IMG/VR virus record: IMGVR_UViG_3300021400_000252
Origin: a virus
Taxonomy: Duplodnaviria; Caudoviricetes
Length of the DNA: 64,000 bases
Strand: one strand, 5' to 3'
The position numbers and the translations under genes were made by a program. The stretch's first letter is position 1. The number at the start of each line of letters is the position of its first letter. Below are positions 32,694 to 43,090 of the stretch, in pieces. The notes below the pieces were generated by a model. That model ran no database searches, was not told the DNA's origin, and worked only from the letters and a program-made list of their open reading frames with translations.

Positions 32694-33224
32694 ATGAAGA
32701 AAACTGTTATTATAAATTTATTTGCTGGACCTGGTGCTGGTAAGTCTACTGGAGCCACATATATTTTTTCTAAACTAAAGATGGCTGGAATTGATGCTGA
32801 ATATATTTCAGAATTTGCCAAAGATAAGGTTTGGGAAGAGAACGATTTAGTATTTAAAAATCAATTTTATATTACTGGAAAACAAGCTTGGAAAATCGCA
32901 AGATGTGATGGTAAAGTTGATGTTGCAGTAACAGATTCTCCAATATTATTAGGTGCAATGTATTGTAGTGATAATCCAGCATTAATTCCTGGAATTATGT
33001 ATGAATTTAATAAACACGAAAATATAAATCTTTTTATTAAAAGACGAAAAGAATATAATCCAAATGGTAGAAATCAAACAGAATCAGAAGCTAAATTAAT
33101 TGATACACAAATTATTAAACTTTTAAATGAAAATAATATTCCATTTACTGTTGTTGAAGGTACTGAAGATGGATATAACGAAATAGTTGAGAAGTTAATA
33201 AAAATGTTTAAAGATAAGGAGTAA
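32694..33224 (+). CDS. P-loop NTPase / nucleoside kinase-like (NadR/AAA_28-like)
   Basis: INLFAGPGAGKST, EFAK, VTDSP, GRNQ. Confidence 0.8.
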   Translation: MKKTVIINLFAGPGAGKSTGATYIFSKLKMAGIDAEYISEFAKDKVWEENDLVFKNQFYITGKQAWKIARCDGKVDVAVTDSPILLGAMYCSDNPALIPGIMYEFNKHENINLFIKRRKEYNPNGRNQTESEAKLIDTQIIKLLNENNIPFTVVEGTEDGYNEIVEKLIKMFKDKE

Positions 33225-33227
33225 CTT

Positions 33228-35108
33228 ATGTGTAGTATATTTGGTTATATTTCACAAGACTCGACTAAAAATCTCTGGAGTAAATTAAAAACAGGTTTAG
33301 TTACTTTAGAATATAAAGGCCACGACATGACTGCCGTAGCTCTTTTTAATTCATCTAAGAAAAGAATTAATATTATTAAAGATAAAGGAACTGTTGCTGA
33401 GTTAGAATCAAAAATAGATTTGAAAGATCAAAATTTAATTGGTAATATTGGATTAGGATATGTAACTTGGGCTGATGATGAAAGTATTAGTGAAGCATCA
33501 AATCATTCAGATGATTATCTAGTAACTGGTATTTATAGTGGAAACATTAATAATTTAATAGATATTAAAGAAAGATTGCTTTCATATAATTATGCTTTTT
33601 ATTCAAAGTCTAATAATGAGATAATTTTAAATCTTATAGATTATTTTTATAAAAAATATAAAGATATAAATACTACTATTAGAAAAACATTATTAAGTAT
33701 TAATGGATCAATTGCATTAAGTGTAGTTTTTAAAGATGATTTAACTAAAATTTGGTTTGCTAAAAAAGAATCTTCATTAATTGTTGCATTAAATGAAAAA
33801 ACAAAAGAGTCTTATATATCTTCAGATACAATAGCATTGACTGATGATAATTTATTAGCATATCCATTAAGAACAAACGAATATGGATATATAAGCGCTA
33901 CAGAGACAAAGATATTTGATTTAAATGCTAATGATATAACTTCTGATAGACAACCATTTAATTTTTGTTCAATAAAGAGTGCTACAGGTCGTGGTAAATT
34001 TAAACATTATCTTATTAAAGAAATAGAAGAGACTCCAAAAGCTATTAAAAATACTCTTAATAAATATATAATAAATAAAGATATTGTTTTAGGAATACCT
34101 AATCAAATTTTAGTTAATACTGATGATGTTTATTTTATTGGAAGTGGTTCATCTTACAATGCAGGTTTAGTTGGTGAATATTTAACAAATAGATATTTTC
34201 ATTATTTTAATACTAAAACAATTTTAGCATCAGAGTTTATTTATAAGGCTGATCAATTAAAAAAAGAAAAATCTATTGCTATTTTCTTATCTCAATCTGG
34301 AGAAACTCAAGATACGTTAACTGCATTAGAATATTGTAAGTTATTAGAAATAAAAACACTCGCAATAACAAATGTTAAGACATCAAGATTAGCTTTTGAA
34401 GCTGATTATGTTTTATATACAGAAGCTTTTCCTGAAGTATCTCTTCCTACAACTAAATCATACTCTTGTCAATTAATTTTATTATACTTGATTGGTGCTA
34501 AAGTTAAGCATTTAAAATTATTACAAAAACGAGAATTAGATAAAAATTTTACAAATAAAATTCTAGATGATTATATTCAAGTTTTTAAAAGTATTCCAGC
34601 ATATATTGAAGATATCTTTAAAAATAGACTAGATGTTCAAAAACTTGCAACAACATTATCTGATAAACATGATATATATTTATTAGGTGGTGTAGATTTT
34701 CCAACATGTTGTGAAGGTGCTTTAAAATTAAAAGAAATTTGTGGAATTCATGCTGAAGCAATTCCAGCAGGAGAATTAAAACACGGTAGTTTATCTTTAA
34801 TTGATAAAAATACTTATTGTATTTTAATTAGTACTGGTGACACAAATGTCCATGAAATTTCTGCAGCCTCTGAAATTAAAGCTAGAGGAGGAAAACTAAT
34901 AGTAATTTCATCTAAAACTGAAAGAAATAAAATATTAAAAGAAACAACTGATCTTAATTTATTAATTCCAGAAATTATAAATGGATCACAATTTTTACAA
35001 TCTTTGACTATTATTTATTTACAATTACTTGCATATTATATCGCAATCCAAAAAGGAATCAATCCTGATAAACCAAGAAATCTAGCCAGAAGTGTTATAA
35101 TTGAATAA
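33228..35108 (+). CDS. glmS: GlmS-like glutamine--fructose-6-phosphate aminotransferase, catalytically degenerate
   Basis: N-terminal Cys, SQSGET, EGALKLKE, GELKHG, PDKPRNLARSV. Confidence 0.85.
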   Translation: MCSIFGYISQDSTKNLWSKLKTGLVTLEYKGHDMTAVALFNSSKKRINIIKDKGTVAELESKIDLKDQNLIGNIGLGYVTWADDESISEASNHSDDYLVTGIYSGNINNLIDIKERLLSYNYAFYSKSNNEIILNLIDYFYKKYKDINTTIRKTLLSINGSIALSVVFKDDLTKIWFAKKESSLIVALNEKTKESYISSDTIALTDDNLLAYPLRTNEYGYISATETKIFDLNANDITSDRQPFNFCSIKSATGRGKFKHYLIKEIEETPKAIKNTLNKYIINKDIVLGIPNQILVNTDDVYFIGSGSSYNAGLVGEYLTNRYFHYFNTKTILASEFIYKADQLKKEKSIAIFLSQSGETQDTLTALEYCKLLEIKTLAITNVKTSRLAFEADYVLYTEAFPEVSLPTTKSYSCQLILLYLIGAKVKHLKLLQKRELDKNFTNKILDDYIQVFKSIPAYIEDIFKNRLDVQKLATTLSDKHDIYLLGGVDFPTCCEGALKLKEICGIHAEAIPAGELKHGSLSLIDKNTYCILISTGDTNVHEISAASEIKARGGKLIVISSKTERNKILKETTDLNLLIPEIINGSQFLQSLTIIYLQLLAYYIAIQKGINPDKPRNLARSVIIE

Positions 35109-35184: not shown

Positions 35185-36045
35185 ATGACAAACGAACTTA
35201 TTTACACAGGTTGGAAGAGATGGGTTCCAACATTAGATGAATGGGCAGAGTTTTCAGTTAAGGCCTATTCACCTTATGAGTTGAAAGAAAATGAGTATTT
35301 GTTAGTATTCAATGAAGAAGATGGCAAAGAAAAACTTGCATCTCAATGGTGTTATGAAAACGGTAAATTAAGAAAGTTTGGAAGGGGATCAATCAATTTT
35401 AGAAGTAAAAAGAGCGCGGATAAAAATATATGTATAAAACCGAGAAATTCAGAACAAATCTGCGCAATTGATATGCTAAAAGACAGAGATAAAACTGTTA
35501 AATTATTAACTGGTACTTGAGGTACTGGTAAAACAATGTTATTAGTTACTGCTGCTTTAGAAGCATTAGAACAAAATGTTTTTGATAGAATTGTATGGAT
35601 TAGAAATAATGTTGATGTTAAAGATACTAAAGATTTAGGTGCTTTACCTGGTGAAGTTAATGATAAACTTATGCCATTTTTAGGACCTTTTATTGACCAC
35701 TGTGGTGAAGCAGGAGTTGAATGTATGCTTAGTAATGGAAAGCTTGTTATTGAACCATTACAGAGTCTTAGAGGACGTAATTTAGAAAGAACTTTAATTA
35801 TGTGTTCTGAAGCTGAAAACCTAACTAAAGAACATATTCAATTAATTATTGCAAGAGCAGCTGAAGGATCAGAAGTTTGGTTTGATGCAGATGTTCGACA
35901 AAGAGATAAAGCAATTTTTGAAAAATCAAAAGGTATCGAAACTATGATTGAGCGATTAAGTGGAAATCAACTATTTGGATATGTCCATTTAGTACAATCA
36001 GAAAGATCAAAAACCGCAGCATTAGCTGATTTATTAAATGATTAA
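35185..36045 (+). CDS. phoH: PhoH-family ATPase (286 aa, TGA at 35518 read through)
   Basis: Walker A reads LTGT[TGA]GTGKT; LGALPG, LRGR, EAEN, Q, RS motifs. Confidence 0.93.
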
Positions 36046-36124
36046 AAGAAGGAATAATAACAAAAATTAAACCGCATATTAGCGGTTTTTTTTGTTGTAT
36101 ATTATATTAATAGGAGATGATAGT

Positions 36125-36379
36125 ATGGCTAAAACTTATACAGAAAAAGAATTACAAACAATCTTAGAAAAAAATGGTAGCGATATTACTGTTAGTGAAT
36201 TAAATAAAAATAAAGTCTATATTTTTAGAATTAACAAAGAAGGCATGCCAATTAATAAAAAACACACTTTAGCAATTAATTTAAAAAACATGCTTGATAA
36301 AATCGGATTAAAAAGTATTATTTTATTAGATGATATAATTCAAGTTACTGAATTAGAGAGAGGTAAAGATAATGATTAA
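36125..36379 (+). CDS. hypothetical protein
   Basis: AGGAG RBS; TTGTATATT promoter at 36095. Confidence 0.75.
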   Translation: MAKTYTEKELQTILEKNGSDITVSELNKNKVYIFRINKEGMPINKKHTLAINLKNMLDKIGLKSIILLDDIIQVTELERGKDND

Positions 36380-37337
36380 TATTAGAAGAAATTGTTTTGA
36401 AACAAATTCATCATCAATGCATAGTTTAGTTGTATCTAAGATTATTAAACCTTATACAGAAGATGAATTAGCTTTAGGATATAGCACTTGGGAAAAAGAA
36501 AGAAATAAAGATTTTGATCTATGGCATTGGATAGAACCTAGTGATATGACATATGAGAGAAGTCCATTCCAAGTATTACGAACTCCGTTAGATAAATTAA
36601 GATATTATGCTGCTTATACTTTAGGTACTTATAGAAAACCTAAAAAAGCTGATATAAAGAGAATCCAAGATTTTATTATGAAACAAACTGGAATTACCAA
36701 TAGAAAAAAGATTATTCTTTGTAAGGATGAGCGTGAATTCTATCATTATAAAGGATTTAAAAAGCATATTACTTATGGTGCTGTTTATTCAAATGATTCT
36801 GGCGAGGATCCAATGCATTATGTCGAAGTACACAATATCTCAATGGAAGATTTAATATTAAATCCTAAATACACAATTATTGTAGATGGTGATGAAAGTC
36901 AACTATTTAAATCATTATTTGATGCTGGAATTATTAATGCAGAGGATTTAGAAGATATTTCTTCTGGAACTGATTATTGGAATGATTCTGACATTCATGT
37001 TAGTGAGCATTCTCTTTACAATAGTTCAAAAGAAGAGATTGAAGCTCATATTAAAGAATCTATGCATCCATTAACTAAAACCATAACATTTAGTTTTGAG
37101 TTTTCTGATGATGAAGATAAATCTGGTATTGATAGAGATACTGTGGCAGAGTTTAATAATGATACTAAGTTAATCAAAGAATTAATTGATTATACTAGAA
37201 CATTATGTCCAAATATTAAGTCTGTATTCTGTGCTTACACATATTCAAGAGAAGATAAGATTACTATGAATGATCTAAAGGATTTAGATTTATCTATATT
37301 TGATACAATTAGGATTGATAATCGAGATGAGGAGTAA
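36372..37337 (+). CDS. FETNSSS-motif protein, subtype A
   Basis: MINIRRNCFETNSSSMHSL; DKLRY; IIVDGD. Confidence 0.85.
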   Translation: MINIRRNCFETNSSSMHSLVVSKIIKPYTEDELALGYSTWEKERNKDFDLWHWIEPSDMTYERSPFQVLRTPLDKLRYYAAYTLGTYRKPKKADIKRIQDFIMKQTGITNRKKIILCKDEREFYHYKGFKKHITYGAVYSNDSGEDPMHYVEVHNISMEDLILNPKYTIIVDGDESQLFKSLFDAGIINAEDLEDISSGTDYWNDSDIHVSEHSLYNSSKEEIEAHIKESMHPLTKTITFSFEFSDDEDKSGIDRDTVAEFNNDTKLIKELIDYTRTLCPNIKSVFCAYTYSREDKITMNDLKDLDLSIFDTIRIDNRDEE

Positions 37338-37343
37338 TATTTA

Positions 37344-37715
37344 ATGATAAATATTCGTAAAGGAACTTTTGAAACTAATAGTTCAAGTTCACATTCATTA
37401 GTTGTTTGTAATGAGGAAACTTGGTTAGATTTTGCAAGAGGTAAATTATTTTATAATACTTTACATGAGAGTAATGGTTTACCTGAGTTTTGTACTTTAA
37501 AAGATATTAAACTTCATATTAGAAGAATTTATAATTCTGTAAATAGAACTAAATTTGCAGACTTAGATATTGACGATGAAGCTAGAAAAGATGTATATCA
37601 TGGAATTAATGAGTTGTTATATTTTGAAGAAACATTCTACTCTATTGATGAGTTAGAGGAATATGATTATAATTCTGATAAGCAAGAAGCCTCATTAAGT
37701 TATTATTTTGGCTAG
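37344..37715 (+). CDS. FETNSSS-motif protein, subtype B
   Basis: MINIRKGTFETNSSSSHSLVVC. Confidence 0.85.
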   Translation: MINIRKGTFETNSSSSHSLVVCNEETWLDFARGKLFYNTLHESNGLPEFCTLKDIKLHIRRIYNSVNRTKFADLDIDDEARKDVYHGINELLYFEETFYSIDELEEYDYNSDKQEASLSYYFG

Positions 37716-37723
37716 GAGCTACT

Positions 37724-38158
37724 ATGATCGGAAAGATTTTACCTTATGAAGGAATATGAACAAGAGCAGAGGTTGAAGCAGATCCAGAGAATATTTATGT
37801 TTTTGGAGATAACTTAGCTGATGCTGAAACAGGATATGTTCCTTCTGTTACACAGGCAGTGATTAGGGGCTTACCAAATGCTTTTGGTATAATAACTAAG
37901 ATAGATAGAAAACTCTCACAAGAAAGTTTTTTAAATGATAGAAATTTTGGACAGTATAGATTCTATCTATACAATATACTTTTTAGTTTAAGAAATAAGT
38001 TAAAGGCTGGAAAAAATGTATATGTTCCAATGAAAGATGGACAAATTCTTTTAGGCACTGGAAAGGCACAAATGCCTGAAAAAGCTCCAATGTGTTTTGA
38101 ACTTTTATGTAAAACTTTTAATGAGTTATTTGATGAATTTGGAGATAAAAATGAATAA
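37724..38158 (+). CDS. macro-domain-like protein (144 aa, TGA at 37757 read through)
   Basis: AGGAG RBS; IYVFGDN...QAVIRGLPNAFGIITK...GTGKA, resembling phage macro-like (FxFG[S/D]N) proteins. Confidence 0.7.
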
Positions 38159-39119
38159 AATAGAATTAAGAAAAAAGATCAGAAACAATTTAAATCACAT
38201 TATCGTACTAACAATACATCCTAGAATGGGATATGATTGTGAATTTGTAGATGACAAGCTAAGAGTAAATTATAAAACTATTGATGGTAAATTATATGCT
38301 TCTGATGAATTTACATTAGATGATTTTGGAGAAAAGTGGGATTTCGAGAAACCAGATATAGACGATTCTCTTAATGATGTAGATATAACTGCAGCTGAAT
38401 TAATTGAAATCACTAAGCAAGCTGAAGATGAAAAATATTCTAAACATAAGCAAGCAGTTGATGAATGCGTAAATGATATAAAAAGAGATGTGGCTCAACA
38501 TATTAGATTTGCAGCTATGAGTGGAGCATATTCATATACTCCACAAATTAATATAAAGGTTCGTAAATATATTAGAGAAAGAAGTCTTTGGGAAGAATTT
38601 GAAAAGGATTTTGAAAACACTGTTTACATGAGATTATGTGAATTTTATAATCCAAAAGGATTTACTGTATCACTTAATAAAGGTTATGCAGAAACCACAT
38701 TAGCAGTTTTAAGCTGGGATAGATCAAAAAGTGAAGCAGAAGATGAGTCTATTCAAACACCTACTCCAATTCAAACAAATGAAGATTTAAATAAGATCTT
38801 AAAAGATGCTTGTGGTGGAATTTCAAGAACTCCATTTGATTTACCACGTTATAATTTTCATAAAGCTGAAGGATTACATCCAGATTTAGTTTGTCCATAT
38901 TGTGGTGCTAGACATTATGAAGAAGGTGTAACAATGCAATCATTAGCTTATGTTCCAAGAATTTATAAAGATGGAATTTTACAAGATACTCCAAATCCTA
39001 ATTGGACAATAATACATTATCGTTGTTTAGAATGTGGAAAACAATTTGAAACAAAGAATGGTAAAATTCAAAAGATTGAAAATGTAGTCACAGCACAGGA
39101 TGGTGATATAAATGTATAA
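38151..39119 (+). CDS. multidomain hypothetical protein with C-terminal zinc ribbon
   Basis: CPYCG...CLECGK. Confidence 0.75.
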   Translation: MNKIELRKKIRNNLNHIIVLTIHPRMGYDCEFVDDKLRVNYKTIDGKLYASDEFTLDDFGEKWDFEKPDIDDSLNDVDITAAELIEITKQAEDEKYSKHKQAVDECVNDIKRDVAQHIRFAAMSGAYSYTPQINIKVRKYIRERSLWEEFEKDFENTVYMRLCEFYNPKGFTVSLNKGYAETTLAVLSWDRSKSEAEDESIQTPTPIQTNEDLNKILKDACGGISRTPFDLPRYNFHKAEGLHPDLVCPYCGARHYEEGVTMQSLAYVPRIYKDGILQDTPNPNWTIIHYRCLECGKQFETKNGKIQKIENVVTAQDGDINV

Positions 39120-39408
39120 AAATGAAATCAAAGAAATTAAAGATGATATTAAAGTTACCAAAATTATGTTTGTAATTCTTTGTATAATTATTTTAATTAC
39201 ACTGATAACATTCTTAATTCTAAATAAGTGTGGCGTTGTTAATGATACTACATTAAATTATGTAAGTACCGGTGCATTGTGTGGACTTATTTTTGGCACA
39301 TCAAATGCATATACAGACATCCAAAATGATAATGAAAAGATCGCTGACATACAACAAAAAGAAATTGAAGAGTTAGAGAATAAATTAAGTGAAAAAGAAG
39401 GAGATTAG
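39112..39408 (+). CDS. membrane protein
   Basis: Long hydrophobic segment. Confidence 0.75.
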   Translation: MYKNEIKEIKDDIKVTKIMFVILCIIILITLITFLILNKCGVVNDTTLNYVSTGALCGLIFGTSNAYTDIQNDNEKIADIQQKEIEELENKLSEKEGD

Positions 39409-39409
39409 C

Positions 39410-40054
39410 ATGTTAAAAGTTAGAAATAGTGTATTTGAAACTAATTCAAGTTCATCACATGCTTTAGTTTATTCTCAAACTAACCAGAATAGAATTGAAT
39501 ATAAATTAGAAACTGATAATGGTGTTTTAACTATTCATTTTAGAGATTATGGTTGGTCAGGTCCTGAATCTTTTTATGGATTTGGTACTGATGATATATT
39601 AGCAAGTTCTAATGATAAGTTAGATTATGTCATGACTAGCTTATGTCGTCAGTTGAACTGGGGAGAAGAACACGATACTACTTATGATGAGGCTAAAGTA
39701 ATGATTGCTAATGGTGCTATTTATGAAAATGATGAAGCTAGAGCCTTATTAGAAAAAATTCAAGATTTATGTCCAGAAATTAAAGAAATTAAATTTGAAT
39801 TGAATGTAGATGAGTATGGAGATCCATTTGGAAGTATCGATCATGATAGTCAAGATTTATTAGATGATGAAGATTTAATTAAGGTTATATTTAATAAAGG
39901 ATGTTTGATAGTTATCGATAATGATAATTCAGATTATTATGATGCATTTAATCCAACATTAAAACCAGGACTAAATACTGGAGTGCAAGTATATGTTGGT
40001 AGTGACCATACTTGCTCAAAATATAATATCACAGAAGAGGATTTTGAAGAATAA
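39410..40054 (+). CDS. FETNSSS-motif protein, subtype A
   Basis: MLKVRNSVFETNSSSSHAL; DKLDY; IDHDS; IVIDND. Confidence 0.85.
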   Translation: MLKVRNSVFETNSSSSHALVYSQTNQNRIEYKLETDNGVLTIHFRDYGWSGPESFYGFGTDDILASSNDKLDYVMTSLCRQLNWGEEHDTTYDEAKVMIANGAIYENDEARALLEKIQDLCPEIKEIKFELNVDEYGDPFGSIDHDSQDLLDDEDLIKVIFNKGCLIVIDNDNSDYYDAFNPTLKPGLNTGVQVYVGSDHTCSKYNITEEDFEE

Positions 40055-40560
40055 TGAGTAAACAATATAATGATTATATTATAGAACATGTAGAAAATGT
40101 TAAAAAAGCTTTTAAGTTTTTAAAAGATAATAAGATTATTACAAGCAAAGACTGCAATTTAGCTGCAGCAGAGAAGCAAATAGCACAGCATGATATGTCT
40201 AAGTGGACTGATGCTGAATATGATGCATATGATAAATACTTTTATAGTGAAAAGACTCAAAAAGTTAAAGATGACTTTGATTTAGCTTGGTTGCATCACC
40301 AACATGCAAATCCACATCATTGGCAACATTGGGTCTTAGTTCAAGACGATAATGGTGATAAAGCTTTAGAAATGCCGAGAGAAACAGCAGTAGAAATGCT
40401 TTGTGATTGGATGAGTTTTTCGTTTAAGGTTGATAAGTTAGACGAAGTATTAAGCTGGTATGATAGCCATAAAAAGACTATGATTTTACATAAAGAAACA
40501 AAGAAATTTGTTGAAGAAGTTTTAGACAAGTATAAGAAAGTCATTAAGGAGAAAAAATAA
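40054..40560 (+). CDS. DUF5662-like HD-related metal-binding protein
   Basis: HDMSK...HHQHANPHHWQHW...EMLCDW. Confidence 0.8.
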   Translation: MSKQYNDYIIEHVENVKKAFKFLKDNKIITSKDCNLAAAEKQIAQHDMSKWTDAEYDAYDKYFYSEKTQKVKDDFDLAWLHHQHANPHHWQHWVLVQDDNGDKALEMPRETAVEMLCDWMSFSFKVDKLDEVLSWYDSHKKTMILHKETKKFVEEVLDKYKKVIKEKK

Positions 40561-41009
40561 TGTTACAAGTTAGAAAAAATACTTTTGAAACTAATAGTTC
40601 AAGTACTCATTCATTAATTATGTGTGAAGCTAGTGAATATAAGTTATTAGAAGACGAAGAAGCATTCTTAGTTGATGAGAAAGTAGTCTTAAAGGAAAAC
40701 TTATTTGATGCTTTAATCAATAATAGTGATTGGAATAAAGAAAAATGGGATAAGTATTGTACTGCATTAGGAAAAGATCCTGAAAGTCTTGAAGATCTAG
40801 TCGAGATGATTCAGCTTGATCCTAATGACTATTATGAAGAAGACGAAGATGAAGATGAGGATGCTAAACATAGACCATTTGATCGAAATGAAGTTTGTAC
40901 TTTAGATCAATTTTTAGATAACGAATATTTAGAAAGCTTTTCGCAAGAATACGAAACCAAATCCGGAGAAAAAATAATTGCTTTTGGTAATTATGGAGAA
41001 GAATATTAA
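40560..41009 (+). CDS. FETNSSS-motif protein, subtype B
   Basis: MLQVRKNTFETNSSSTHSLIMC...AFGNYG. Confidence 0.85.
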   Translation: MLQVRKNTFETNSSSTHSLIMCEASEYKLLEDEEAFLVDEKVVLKENLFDALINNSDWNKEKWDKYCTALGKDPESLEDLVEMIQLDPNDYYEEDEDEDEDAKHRPFDRNEVCTLDQFLDNEYLESFSQEYETKSGEKIIAFGNYGEEY

Positions 41010-41013
41010 AATT

Positions 41014-41035
41014 GAGGCTAAATAGCCTCTTTTTT
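41014..41035 (+). terminator. intrinsic terminator
   Basis: GAGGCTA-aa-TAGCCTC followed by T tract. Confidence 0.65.
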
Positions 41036-41067
41036 ATTGTATTTTATATTATAAAGAGGTGAAATAG

Positions 41068-41973
41068 ATGAAACCAATTGGAAAAGTAAAAAATGGTAAC
41101 TATTGGAAGGTGCTATTTGATGATGGAACTTTAATTAAATATAATAAAGAGAATGAACTAATTCCCGAGTATCCAGATTCAATGGATGTTAAGATAACTA
41201 ATAGTTGTGATATGGGCTGTCCAATGTGTCATGAAAATTCAAAACCAAATGATAAGCATGGAGATATAATGAATGCAAAGTTTATTGAAACTTTACTTCC
41301 TTATACAGAATTAGCAATTGGTGGTGGAAATCCACTTGAGCATCCAGATCTAGAAGCTTTCTTAGAAAAGTGCAAATCTTTAAAGTTAATTCCTAATATG
41401 ACAGTTAATCAAAAGCACTTTATGAAAGACTATGATAGGATCACAAAATTGGTCCAAAATAAGCTTATTTATGGTTTAGGTGTATCTTTAACCAACCCTG
41501 AGGAAAAAGGCTTTTTAGAGCGAATTAAAGCTATTCCAAACGCAGTTATTCATGTTATTAATGGTTATCATAAACTTGATGAAATTGAAAAGCTTTATGA
41601 TAATAATTTAAAGATGCTAATCTTAGGTTATAAGACTTTTAGGCGTGGCAAAGATTTATTTGAAGGAACTAATCATGATCTTATTTCTAATAGAATGAAA
41701 GATTGGCATGATGCTTTACCTGAAATTACAAAGCATTTTGCAGTAGTATCTTTTGATAATCTAGCTTTAAATCAATTAGATCCAAAAAGATTACTAACTG
41801 ATGAAGCTTGGAATCAATCATATATGGGCGAAGATGGACAAATGACTATGTTTATTGATTTAGTTAAGAATACTTATTCAACTTCTTCAACGACTCCAGA
41901 AGAAGAGAGAAAACCATTATTAGAGGACATCAAGCCAATGTTTGATGATATTAGAAAGATAAATGGTAATTAA
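41068..41973 (+). CDS. radical SAM enzyme
   Basis: ITNSCDMGCPMCHE (CxxxCxxC), AIGGGNP; no C-terminal SPASM cysteines. Confidence 0.92.
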   Translation: MKPIGKVKNGNYWKVLFDDGTLIKYNKENELIPEYPDSMDVKITNSCDMGCPMCHENSKPNDKHGDIMNAKFIETLLPYTELAIGGGNPLEHPDLEAFLEKCKSLKLIPNMTVNQKHFMKDYDRITKLVQNKLIYGLGVSLTNPEEKGFLERIKAIPNAVIHVINGYHKLDEIEKLYDNNLKMLILGYKTFRRGKDLFEGTNHDLISNRMKDWHDALPEITKHFAVVSFDNLALNQLDPKRLLTDEAWNQSYMGEDGQMTMFIDLVKNTYSTSSTTPEEERKPLLEDIKPMFDDIRKINGN

Positions 41974-41974
41974 T

Positions 41975-42196
41975 ATGAAAAAAGATATCGAAGGAAAAGA
42001 AATTCATGTTGGTGATAAAGTGGTTTTTACACATAATAAATCACAAGGTGTTCAGCTTTTTATCGGAATTGTATTAAAAGAAGATGAAACTAAAATTGGT
42101 AAACCACTAATTATATCATACTATTCTAAGTATGGATCAGAAAATACTGTATATATCACAAGTCCTAGTAAAAGTATTTATGTAATTAAGGAGTAA
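41975..42196 (+). CDS. small SH3-like/YopX-like protein
   Basis: KDIEGKEIHVGDKV. Confidence 0.65.
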   Translation: MKKDIEGKEIHVGDKVVFTHNKSQGVQLFIGIVLKEDETKIGKPLIISYYSKYGSENTVYITSPSKSIYVIKE

Positions 42197-42199
42197 TTT

Positions 42200-42673
42200 A
42201 TGGAAGAAAAAGTAATTGGATTTTGGCAAGAAAGAGAAAAATATGGCTGTTTTAGTAATTTCTATCCATGTGAATTTACTTGGGAAGGTAGAAAATTTAA
42301 TTGTTCTGAACAAGCTTTCATGTGGTCAAAAGCTAGATGCTTTCATGATGATGAAACAGCTAATCAAATAATGTTAGAAACTGATCCTAAAAAGATTAAG
42401 AAATTAGGAAGACAAGTTAAAGGCTTTGATGAAGAATTTTGGGCTGAAGTACGCTATAAAAATATGCTTTCAATTAATCATGAAAAGTATAGACAAAACC
42501 CTGAACTAAGAAAAATATTAATGAGTACAGGTGATACTAAGATAGTAGAAGATTCACCATTTGACTATGTTTGGGGAATTGGTAGAGATGGAAGTGGTCA
42601 AAATTTATTAGGACAAGTTTTAATGAGTGTTAGACAATATTATAAAGATATTATGAAAGAAGCTAGTCAATAA
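42200..42673 (+). CDS. NADAR-family (YbiA-like) protein
   Basis: FSNFY, SEQAFM..KA, KKLGR, VEDSPFDYVWGIG..G.GQNLLG..LM.VR. Confidence 0.93.
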   Translation: MEEKVIGFWQEREKYGCFSNFYPCEFTWEGRKFNCSEQAFMWSKARCFHDDETANQIMLETDPKKIKKLGRQVKGFDEEFWAEVRYKNMLSINHEKYRQNPELRKILMSTGDTKIVEDSPFDYVWGIGRDGSGQNLLGQVLMSVRQYYKDIMKEASQ

Positions 42674-43020
42674 TGAAGTTAATTGTAGCAGGCTCTAGAG
42701 AATTTAATAATTATGATTTATTAAAGAAAAGTATCCAAGAAAACTTTCAAAGATATGAAGTAGAAGAAATAGTTTCCGGAACAGCTAGAGGTGCAGATAC
42801 TTTAGGTGAACAATTTGCGATAGAATATTCTATTCCAATTAAAAAATTTCCAGCTAATTGGGACTTATATGGTAAATCTGCAGGTTATAGGCGTAATGTC
42901 GAAATGGCAGATTACGCAGATGCTTTAATTGCATTTTGGGATGGAAAATCTAAAGGCACTGGACATATGATTAATATCGCAAAAGATAAGAATTTAAGAG
43001 TTATTGTAGTTAATTTTTAG
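42673..43020 (+). CDS. SLOG-family (YspA-like/DUF2493) protein
   Basis: IVAGSREF, VSGTARGAD, AGYRRN, FWDGKSKGT. Confidence 0.92.
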   Translation: MKLIVAGSREFNNYDLLKKSIQENFQRYEVEEIVSGTARGADTLGEQFAIEYSIPIKKFPANWDLYGKSAGYRRNVEMADYADALIAFWDGKSKGTGHMINIAKDKNLRVIVVNF

Positions 43021-43090
43021 CACCAAACATTTTGGTGCTTTTATTGTATATTATATTATATAGTATTTTTAGTTTTAAGGAGATGATATT

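What the first reader, a model, noticed from the sequence alone, without database searches (positions are those of the whole stretch)
36372..41973. Four FETNSSS-motif paralogues next to a radical SAM enzyme: candidate undescribed protein-modification system
Seen: four otherwise divergent proteins start with the same motif M-x-x-[IV]-R-x-x-x-F-E-T-N-S-S-S-x-H-[SA]-L (36372, 37344, 39410, 40560). They form two subtypes in the order A-B...A-(HD-like)-B. Subtype A also shares DKLxY and I[IV][VI]D[GN]D; subtype B shares HSL..C and a C-terminal FG. This looks like a duplicated two-gene unit. The next gene (41068) is a CxxxCxxC radical SAM enzyme without SPASM cysteines, and an Ntn protease lies about 1 kb further on. 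Known: radical SAM maturases (anaerobic sulfatase maturases, RiPP enzymes) recognise short conserved N-terminal motifs and modify Ser or Cys. Inference: the NSSS segment is a modification or cleavage site (e.g. Ser oxidation or cross-linking, or Asn|Ser autoprocessing) that generates a cofactor in an A/B heteromeric enzyme. I cannot assign this system to a characterised pathway.
Basis: partly seen in the sequence, partly recalled or inferred. Interest (0 to 1): 0.88.

Follow-up and report, generated by a model that had tools for sequence, protein, structure and literature searches.

The report
Phage radical-SAM enzyme with tagged clients
Four acidic phage proteins start with the same near-invariant 17-residue serine-rich tag and sit beside a small radical-SAM enzyme that, across thousands of phages and some bacteria, almost always travels with such tagged proteins and is predicted to thread the tag into its active site, so this is probably an undescribed protein-modification system whose chemistry is still unknown.

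Summary
Four co-oriented genes (36372, 37344, 39410, 40560) begin M-x-x-[IV]-R-x-x-x-F-E-T-N-S-S-S-x-H, and a single-cluster CX3CX2C radical SAM (rSAM) gene follows at 41068.

The tag and this rSAM clade are linked in both directions:
- 68 of 76 viral loci fetched by the tag alone carry the rSAM.
- 78 of 80 loci fetched by the rSAM alone carry a tag.
- All are on the same strand, and the genes often overlap.

The tag profile hits 6,444 protein clusters, nearly always at residue 1. It sits on at least three non-homologous families of acidic bodies (A, B and a third), none with a known domain or fold. Nine fusion clusters join tag, body and rSAM in one chain.

A controlled complex prediction scores 0.84 against a best control of 0.00. 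It places tag residues 1-23 on the enzyme's invariant N-terminal hairpin and inside its barrel.

My best reading (about 0.55) is that the rSAM modifies the tag. The chemistry, the "cofactor" idea and an A/B heteromer remain untested. The HD-like gene and the Ntn protease are not part of the system.

This scan has already found the same module on other DNA, and I found no paper or family library that describes it.

The parts
36372..37337 (+). Tag protein, A-type body, 321 aa, pI 5.0. The tag is residues 1-19. The body has diverged at the family's G.IDH / DNDN positions (GAVYSND / VDGDE).
37344..37715 (+). Tag protein, B-like, 123 aa, pI 4.7. It has the tag, Cys22 and ends ...YYFG.
39410..40054 (+). 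Tag protein, A-type body, 214 aa, pI 4.2. It has W49, K70-L-x-Y73, G141-x-I-D-H145 and D172-N173. The modelled alpha/beta fold has no PDB match.
40560..41009 (+). Tag protein, B-type, 149 aa, pI 4.1. It has the tag, Cys22, an acidic variable middle and a conserved C-terminal TKSGE..AFG.YG. This was the partner used in the complex prediction.
41068..41973 (+). Radical SAM enzyme, 301 aa, with a single CX3CX2C cluster (C47, C51, C54). It has an invariant N-terminal NGN...DGT hairpin (residues 9-21) and the motifs K.LILGYK and SFDNLA. It has no SPASM/twitch cysteines.
36069..36088 (+). Terminator-like hairpin just upstream of the block of tag genes (consensus match only).
41014..41029 (+). Terminator-like hairpin between the last tag gene and the rSAM gene (consensus match only).

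Best explanation
The 301-aa radical SAM enzyme is a dedicated protein-modifying enzyme. Its substrates are the co-encoded acidic proteins that carry the N-terminal tag M-x-x-[IV]-R-x-x-[VTI]-F-E-T-N-S-S-S-x-H.

Inferred mechanism: tag residues 1-7, with Met1 retained, add as a beta-strand to the enzyme's invariant NGN...DGT hairpin. Residues 9-23 then lie in the partial TIM barrel against the clade's invariant residues, next to SAM and the [4Fe-4S] cluster. There a 5'-deoxyadenosyl radical would abstract a hydrogen from the E-T-N-S-S-S stretch.

In A-type proteins residues 15-21 form a core strand of the folded body. Modification would therefore have to happen before or during folding, as anaerobic sulfatase-maturating enzymes do with sulfatases.

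Shown here: the tag, its portability across unrelated bodies, two-way genomic linkage, fusions, and a predicted interface that passed its controls. Inferred: that binding leads to covalent modification, which residue is hit, and what the mature proteins do. They may be counter-defence effectors, given their acidity and occasional Tad2-like fusions.
For: (1) Linkage. 68/76 viral loci fetched by the tag alone hold this rSAM clade on the same strand, mostly 0-800 bp away; at least 4 of the 8 exceptions are cut by contig ends. 78/80 loci fetched by the rSAM profile alone hold a strict tag, 141/141 on the rSAM's strand, at a median of 425 nt. 60/79 genome/MAG loci hold the rSAM, and most of the rest are short contigs. 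The pair spans 48 rSAM lineages at 60% identity. It is seen in Lak megaphages, Microcystis phage Ma-LMM01 and an unrelated JGI contig.

(2) Portability. The tag profile hits 6,444 representative clusters at E <= 1e-3, with the tag at residue 1 in about 140 of the best 150. Profile-profile comparison of A and B aligns only columns 1-41. Of 350 unique tag proteins, 178 are A-like, 77 are B-like and 95 are neither. In the broad A alignment the tag has 10 invariant positions, while the body has only 3 near-invariant ones.

(3) Fusions. L149:2310-3992 is canonical tag + body + rSAM in one chain. Eight further clusters of 566-596 aa have a relaxed tag (R, E-T and the Ser run kept; F9, N12 and H17 variable), a ~240-aa body and the rSAM, with the NGN...DGT hairpin retained.

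(4) Complex prediction of rSAM + full-length 149-aa B protein + SAM + 4Fe-4S. ipSAE was 0.84 (three runs 0.83-0.85) against a best of 0.00 in 3 controls. In the tool's calibration, 58 of 80 solved complexes and 2 of 110 mismatched pairs reached the mark; these counts hold only roughly here because I used my own alignments and ligands rode along. The runs agree in at least 85% of contacts and the partner pLDDT is at least 71. The interface is partner residues 1-23 and 25-27, rSAM residues 19-26 (hairpin), and 40, 81, 108-112, 135-138, 158-162, 182-186, 224-232, 250-256 and 273-274. These are the clade's invariant residues.

(5) Position 2 of the tag is a large residue in 188/191 cases. By the known rule for Met aminopeptidase this keeps Met1, and the model has Met1 touching the enzyme.

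(6) Inteins sit in many homologues of the rSAM. That is typical of enzymes with constrained active sites.
Against: There is no chemical evidence. A predicted interface is not a demonstrated one, and the calibration did not cover custom alignments or ligands. Fusion of an enzyme to its substrate is unusual; fusions fit stable subunits better. The enzyme has no auxiliary Fe-S cluster and no conserved non-cluster Cys, so well-known Ser/Cys oxidation (anSME) or epimerisation mechanisms do not transfer directly. In the A-type model, tag residues 15-21 are a core strand, so the tag is not freely available in the folded protein. The tag has no Gly, Cys, Lys, Trp or Tyr, which are the residues used by most characterised protein or peptide rSAM chemistries.
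Confidence: 0.55

Rival explanations
1. Adaptor or subunit model. The tag proteins are not substrates. They are interchangeable, stably bound subunits of the rSAM: the tag plugs into or completes the active site, and the variable acidic bodies recruit different third-party targets (host proteins, nucleic acids or nucleotides) that the enzyme then modifies.
For: Nine fusion clusters, one in an ordinary bacterial chromosomal context where the fused gene is the only tag carrier. There are 1-10 paralogous tag proteins per single rSAM. The B gene usually lies directly upstream of the rSAM or overlaps it, which suggests 1:1 production. The extreme invariance of the tag fits a part of an active site. 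All bodies are acidic.
Against: In the predicted complex the tag fills the barrel and touches the invariant residues, which leaves little room for another substrate. No body contacts with the enzyme were predicted apart from residues 40, 42 and 119. No candidate third substrate or further conserved gene was found in the neighbourhoods.
Confidence: 0.22
2. Intrinsic-motif model. FETNSSSxH is a catalytic or ligand-binding loop of the tagged proteins themselves, for example a metal or phosphate site that works with G.IDH and DNDN in A-type proteins. The rSAM is only a pathway neighbour and does not bind the tag directly.
For: Half of the tag proteins share one body family with further conserved polar motifs: W49, KLxY, D144-H145 and D172-N173. 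Tag residues 15-21 are modelled as a core strand.
Against: The same tag sits on bodies with no detectable homology. The window's 321-aa A copy has lost H145 and N173 yet keeps a perfect tag. Residues 1-10 have low model confidence (pLDDT 36, and 56 with the deeper alignment). The tag is always at a fixed distance from Met1. The complex prediction and the fusions point to direct contact with the rSAM.
Confidence: 0.1
3. Targeting-signal model. The tag is an N-terminal sorting or cleavage signal unrelated to the rSAM, comparable to the T4 capsid-targeting sequence that is cut after h-x-E.
For: Several divergent proteins share an N-terminal peptide containing V-F-E. From memory this recalls T4 internal-protein loci. 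An HslV-like protease lies nearby in this window.
Against: It does not explain the two-way linkage with the rSAM, the fusions, or the bacterial chromosomal copy. The protease recurs in 0/238 loci.
Confidence: 0.03

Closest known systems
Anaerobic sulfatase-maturating enzymes (anSME/AtsB) and their sulfatase clients
   Same: An rSAM acts on a Ser (or Cys) in a short conserved motif near the N-terminus of whole proteins, before they fold. One enzyme serves many paralogous clients. The system occurs in anaerobes.
   Different: anSMEs carry a SPASM domain with two auxiliary clusters, whereas this enzyme has only the three cluster cysteines conserved. The motif here is R-x3-F-E-T-N-S-S-S-x-H at residue 5-17, not (C/S)-x-(P/A)-x-R. 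The clients are not sulfatases and match no known fold. No NCBIfam maturase model reaches its cut-off: the best is 26.6 bits against a cut-off of 380.
RiPP radical SAM maturases that bind a leader by strand addition (SuiB/SuiA, PDB 5V1Q-5V1T; PqqE/PqqD, 6C8V; CteB)
   Same: A conserved N-terminal recognition peptide is shared by several precursors. Binding is predicted to be by beta-strand addition, with the adjacent residues in the barrel. SuiB and PqqE are among the nearest solved sequences.
   Different: The sequence similarity is marginal (E 6e-4 and 7e-3, cluster region only). There is no RRE/PqqD domain: only ~40 residues lie before the cluster motif. There is no SPASM domain. The 'core' lies at the extreme N-terminus of 100-320-aa folded proteins and is followed by the body, instead of being a short C-terminal core peptide. 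Nothing indicates that a peptide is released.
Glycyl-radical-enzyme activases (PflA, NrdG) with their protein substrates
   Same: A small single-cluster rSAM takes a loop of a whole protein into its barrel. Enzyme-substrate fusions and 1:1 gene pairs are known for this class (from memory). Both occur in phages.
   Different: The tag has no conserved Gly. It is N-terminal, not in a C-terminal Gly-radical domain. The NrdG models score only 14-18 bits, against cut-offs of 126-152.

Membership tests
Radical SAM superfamily (PF04055) | CX3CX2C motif binding a [4Fe-4S] cluster, within a partial TIM barrel | tested here: met
   C47-x3-C51-x2-C54 is invariant in 40 homologues. The Pfam Radical_SAM score is 27.6 bits, just below the gathering score of 29.5. 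Most homologues carry a precomputed PF04055 hit. phrog_16999 'Fe-S oxidoreductase' matches at 2.8e-44.
SPASM/twitch radical SAM enzymes (includes anSME, PqqE, SuiB, CteB) | C-terminal Cys-rich domain binding one or two auxiliary Fe-S clusters | tested here: not met
   No Cys outside the CX3CX2C motif is conserved in alignment A5. The protein ends ~45 residues after the last barrel motif.
Anaerobic sulfatase-maturating enzyme | Match to the curated maturase models; the substrate motif (C/S)-x-(P/A)-x-R in a sulfatase | tested here: not met
   No NCBIfam model comes near its cut-off. The tag lacks the sulfatase motif. The clients show no sulfatase or any other Pfam domain.
RiPP maturase with RiPP recognition element | PqqD-like RRE domain (~85 aa wHTH) in the enzyme or a partner; a short precursor peptide | tested here: not met
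   Only ~40 residues precede the cluster motif, and they form the NGN...DGT hairpin. There is no PqqD hit in Pfam. No conserved third gene was found. The substrates are 100-320-aa proteins.
Glycyl radical enzyme activase | Match to the PflA/NrdG models; the substrate carries a conserved Gly in a radical domain | tested here: not met
   The NrdG models score 14-18 bits against cut-offs of 126-152. No position of the tag is a conserved Gly.
Tad2-like (PF11195) anti-Thoeris sponges | DUF2829/Tad2-like domain | tested here: not met
   The domain is absent from all four window proteins. It is present only as a C-terminal add-on in one cluster of A-type relatives (P0023; L014:9998-10786 at 3.6e-7; 1 of 128 representatives).
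Any solved fold for the A-type body | Structural match to a PDB chain | tested here: inconclusive
   Two models were made (pLDDT 78 and 81, pTM 0.75 and 0.82). Foldseek against the PDB gave a best E of 2.5. VIA-align wide gave a best Z of 2.3 and then none at Z >= 2. BFVD returned only an uncharacterised phage protein.

The most novel reading that the evidence does not exclude
The enzyme installs a previously unseen modification in the invariant E-T-N-S-S-S stretch, for example a Ser-derived aldehyde, a cross-link or a stored radical. This modification acts as a built-in cofactor or switch for a large, fast-diversifying arsenal of acidic phage effectors, some of them fused to Tad2-like anti-Thoeris domains. 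That would be a radical-SAM-gated class of counter-defence proteins found in phages of bacteria and archaea, with a fused stand-alone form in bacteria.
Probability: 0.15. Interest if true: 0.92.

Novelty: new variant of a known kind. Interest (0 to 1): 0.8.

Why it matters
If the reading holds, this is one of the most widespread uncharacterised radical SAM systems in viruses. The tag defines 6,444 protein clusters at 50% identity, and the enzyme has more than 6,000 relatives. The system spans Lak megaphages, cyanophages, gut and rumen phages, archaeal-virus-like contigs and some bacterial chromosomes.

It would add a new substrate class to radical SAM protein chemistry: the extreme N-terminus of whole folded proteins, a Ser/Asn/His-rich site, and no auxiliary cluster. 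It would also give a single handle, the tag, for finding and studying thousands of phage proteins of unknown function.

The system is directly testable. The tag is short, the enzyme is small, and cultured hosts exist: Microcystis phages Ma-LMM01/MaMV, and a prophage-like locus in Eubacterium plexicaudatum ASF492 (L082).

Tried and rejected
- Family libraries. Pfam, PHROGs and NCBIfam gave nothing significant for the four tag proteins. A weak Peptidase_C25 hit (E 0.028) and a DUF6273 hit (E 0.068) were discarded as noise. Pfam on 128 diverse tag proteins found only one Tad2-like cluster and the rSAM fusion.
- Fold searches. Two A-type models were searched against the PDB (Foldseek, and VIA-align wide twice) and BFVD. 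No known fold was found. A profile search of PDB sequences with the A family gave nothing below E 0.05.
- A single-sequence scan of viral contigs with the rSAM found nothing; the profile scan worked.
- Literature. Searches for 'ETNSSS', 'phage-encoded radical SAM', radical SAM + Ma-LMM01, radical SAM + jumbo phage, and radical SAM + bacteriophage + maturase terms returned nothing relevant.
- 'Long rSAM = fusion' was rejected for about 48 of 61 long homologues. These hold inteins (Hint + LAGLIDADG) at two insertion sites.
- 'Internal tags' (P0145, P0158, P0273, P0252) were rejected. Each has a Met at the canonical position 8 residues before the Phe, so they are merged or mis-started gene calls.
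- A third conserved component was looked for and not found. The best neighbour family, a P-loop kinase-like ORF, occurs in 11 of 48 lineages. DUF5662 and HslV-like genes occur in 0/238 loci and NADAR in 9/238.


Full report
**What is in the window.** The region lies in a low-GC (about 28%) stretch in which every gene is on the + strand, which is typical of a large phage.
- Four ORFs start with the same peptide: 36372-37337 (321 aa), 37344-37715 (123 aa), 39410-40054 (214 aa) and 40560-41009 (149 aa). All begin M-x-x-[IV]-R-x-x-x-F-E-T-N-S-S-S-x-H-[SA]-L.
- FETNSSS occurs four times in the six-frame translation and never in 200 shuffles.
- The next gene (41068-41973, 301 aa) has C47-x3-C51-x2-C54. 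It scores 27.6 bits on Pfam Radical_SAM (gathering score 29.5) and 2.8e-44 on phrog_16999 'Fe-S oxidoreductase'.
- Pfam, PHROGs and NCBIfam give nothing significant for the four tag proteins.

**The tag.** I collected 191 unique tag ORFs from related loci.
- R5, E10, N12, S13, S14 and S15 are invariant. F9 and T11 are each 190/191, and H17 is 189/191.
- R5 and H17 were not part of any pattern used to fetch or pick these ORFs.
- Every one of the six Ser codons is used at each invariant Ser, and all six Arg codons at R5. Selection therefore acts on the peptide.
- Position 2 is a large residue in 188/191 cases. By the established Met-aminopeptidase rule, Met1 should stay on.
- A profile of the first 40 residues hits 6,444 representatives of 50%-identity clusters at E <= 1e-3 (624 at 1e-10). 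In about 140 of the best 150 the tag starts at residue 1.
- The few 'internal' tags have a Met exactly 8 residues before the Phe. They look like merged or mis-started gene calls.

**The bodies.** They are neither all alike nor all unrelated.
- In 350 unique tag proteins, body-only HMMs classify 178 as A-like, 77 as B-like and 95 as neither. The last group includes a third recurrent family whose C-terminus reads FLSD.YKFV..E.W.G..GEIY.
- A-type bodies share W49, K70-L-x-Y73, G141-x-I-D-H145 and a strand ending in D172-N173.
- B-type proteins have Cys22, a variable acidic middle and a conserved C-terminal TTPSG(D/E)..AFG.YGYDG.
- Profile-profile comparison of A and B aligns only columns 1-41 (probability 99.1).
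- All three classes are acidic: pI is below 5 in 94-97%, against 32% of other + strand ORFs of the same loci.
- Two AlphaFold models of the 214-aa A protein (pLDDT 78 and 81, pTM 0.75 and 0.82) give an alpha/beta fold with no PDB match: Foldseek best E 2.5, and VIA-align best Z 2.3 and then none.
- In these models residues 15-21 are the first core strand. Residues 1-10 have low confidence (36, and 56 with the deeper alignment).
- The window's 321-aa A copy has lost H145 and N173 but keeps a perfect tag. In the broad A alignment the tag has ten invariant positions against three near-invariant ones in the body. The tag is therefore under its own, stronger constraint.

**Linkage with the radical SAM clade.**
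- The rSAM has 43-47% identical homologues in 15 Lak megaphage records and about 40% identical ones in Microcystis phages.
- In Lak-B7 the rSAM is followed at once by four tag ORFs. In Ma-LMM01 gp130 carries the tag two genes upstream of the rSAM, gp128. In an unrelated JGI contig two tag ORFs precede the rSAM and the second overlaps its start.
- Of 76 viral loci fetched by the tag alone, 68 hold this clade on the same strand, mostly 0-800 bp away. At least four of the eight exceptions are cut by a contig end.
- Of 80 loci fetched by the rSAM profile alone, 78 hold a strict tag. All 141 tags are on the rSAM's strand, at a median distance of 425 nt. One of the two exceptions is a 1.9-kb fragment.
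- Of 79 loci from cellular genomes and MAGs, 60 hold the rSAM. These include Clostridia, Bacilli, Bacteroidales, Methanobrevibacter and Methanomassiliicoccaceae, and isolates such as Eubacterium plexicaudatum ASF492.
- Many of these loci are close relatives of one another. Even so, the rSAM-bearing loci fall into 48 lineages at 60% identity.
- Common gene orders are A-B-R, A-A-B-R, R-A-A and A-R, and B sits almost always directly before R.
- No third gene family is conserved. The best is a P-loop kinase-like ORF in 11 of 48 lineages.
- The window's DUF5662 ('HD-like') and HslV-like genes recur in 0 of 238 loci, and NADAR in 9.

**The enzyme.** Forty homologues share only the three cluster cysteines.
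- Beyond these, an N-terminal N9-G-N11...G20-T21 hairpin, D40, E81, T112, G136/G138/S140, H162, K182...K189 (K.LILGYK), S228-F-D-N-L232, G254 and S274 are invariant or nearly so.
- There is no SPASM or twitch Cys cluster and no room for an RRE domain.
- The nearest solved sequences are GDGT/MAS synthase (7TOL, E 3e-4), SuiB (5V1Q, 6e-4) and PqqE (6C8V, 7e-3). These matches cover the cluster-binding region only.
- The clade has more than 6,300 homologues at E <= 1e-5.
- Many homologues carry inteins at two sites.

**Fusions.**
- L149:2310-3992 encodes canonical tag + body + rSAM in one 560-aa chain.
- Eight further clusters (566-596 aa) have a ~240-aa N-terminal part followed by the rSAM. They begin with a relaxed tag, M.YQIRRxIxETSSSSAS. 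R5, E10, T11 and the Ser run are kept, while F9, N12 and H17 vary. The NGN...DGT hairpin is kept.
- One of these lies in an ordinary bacterial chromosomal neighbourhood (two-component system, TrkA, RecR-YbaB-DnaX) and is the only tag carrier there.
- My inference is that what survives fusion (R, E-T and the Ser run) is what the chemistry needs, and that F9, N12 and H17 mainly provide affinity when the partners are separate.

**Complex prediction.** I used the one job on rSAM (40-row alignment) + the full-length 149-aa B protein (28 rows) + SAM + a 4Fe-4S cluster.
- ipSAE was 0.85, 0.83 and 0.84 in three runs, against 0.00 for the best of three controls.
- The runs agree in at least 85% of contacts, and the partner pLDDT is at least 71.
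- In the tool's calibration, 58 of 80 solved complexes and 2 of 110 mismatched pairs reached this mark. Those counts hold only roughly here, because I used my own alignments and ligands rode along.
- The interface is almost only the tag (partner residues 1-23 and 25-27), although the whole protein was offered.
- Tag residues 1-7 pair with rSAM residues 19-26 with the least expected error. The rest of the tag touches residues 40, 81, 108-112, 135-138, 158-162, 182-186, 224-232, 250-256 and 273-274, which are the clade's invariant residues.
- This supports binding and does not show it. The tool gives no ligand distances, so the residue nearest SAM is unknown.

**Reading.**
- Most likely (0.55): the enzyme modifies the tag of its co-encoded clients. 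Residues 1-7 serve as a mini-leader bound by strand addition, and E-T-N-S-S-S lies in the active site. For A-type clients this would have to happen before folding.
- Main rival (0.22): the tag proteins are exchangeable, stably bound adaptor subunits that aim the enzyme at other targets. The fusions and the many-to-one gene ratio fit this.
- An intrinsic catalytic loop unrelated to the rSAM (0.10) and a sorting signal (0.03) fit the data poorly.
- The chemistry, the 'cofactor' idea and an A/B heteromer are untested.
- A counter-defence role is suggested only weakly: by the acidity of all bodies, by Tad2-like C-terminal domains on one cluster of A-type relatives, and by NADAR/SLOG neighbours in this window.

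**Relation to earlier work.** Other agents in this scan reported the same tag-plus-rSAM module on other DNA. My linkage, fusion and docking results were obtained independently on this window and agree with theirs. I found no paper or curated family that describes the system.

Noticed in passing
window 35185-36045 and 37724-38158: TGA appears to be read as a sense codon. PhoH is split by TGA at 35518-35520. Read through, it is one 286-aa protein with the Walker A loop spanning the junction, and Pfam PhoH rises from 87.7 to 117.5 bits with profile coverage 2-190. DUF7831 has an ATG at 37724 and an in-frame TGA at 37757-37759. Read through, it rises from 51.8 to 81.4 bits with profile coverage 3-117. 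Fourteen + strand ORFs of 80 aa or more would contain in-frame TGA. The host may use code 4 or 25. None of the five module genes is affected.
   Followed up: partly
window 41963-43020: Downstream of the rSAM, before the next terminator-like hairpin (43019-43039), lie a 77-aa ORF, a NADAR domain protein (42200-42673, 2e-49) and a SLOG/YAcAr protein (42673-43020, 6e-12). This is an ADP-ribose/nucleotide-processing pair, possibly co-transcribed with the rSAM. NADAR recurs near the module in only 9 of 238 loci.
   Followed up: partly
window 40054-40560: The 'HD-like' gene between the second A and B genes is DUF5662 (4e-35), with a His-rich HHQHANPHHWQHW stretch. It recurs in none of the 238 related loci, so it is an insertion in the module and not a component of it.
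   Followed up: yes
L006:3650-5662, L073:12611-14710; P0295-P0355: Many homologues of the rSAM are interrupted by inteins (Hint + LAGLIDADG) at two different insertion points, at about profile positions 59 and 88-94.
   Followed up: partly
L102 and L111 (Fibrobacter and Prevotella MAG contigs): Arrays of ten tag-bearing ORFs accompany a single rSAM. This is the largest array seen here.
   Followed up: no
L014:9998-10786, P0023: In loci of the R-A-A type, the first A-type tag protein carries a C-terminal Tad2-like (PF11195) domain. The rSAMs of this clade have an expanded CX12CX2C cluster motif.
   Followed up: partly
L239:8001-9749 (GCA_019973035.1 contig): A bacterial chromosomal copy of the system exists as a single fused gene (relaxed tag + body + rSAM). 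It is flanked by a DUF7005 gene, two unknown genes and an LRR_5 protein, with no phage genes in 17 kb.
   Followed up: partly
window 33228-35108 and 32694-33224: A GlmS-like protein (two SIS domains plus a weak amidotransferase domain) and an AAA_28 P-loop protein lie upstream of the module.
   Followed up: no
L001:15130-15963 (Lak-B7, - strand): About 2 kb downstream of the tag array in Lak-B7 there is an ORF that, from memory, resembles the TIGR02452/macro-like (PARG-like) family. I did not test this.
   Followed up: no
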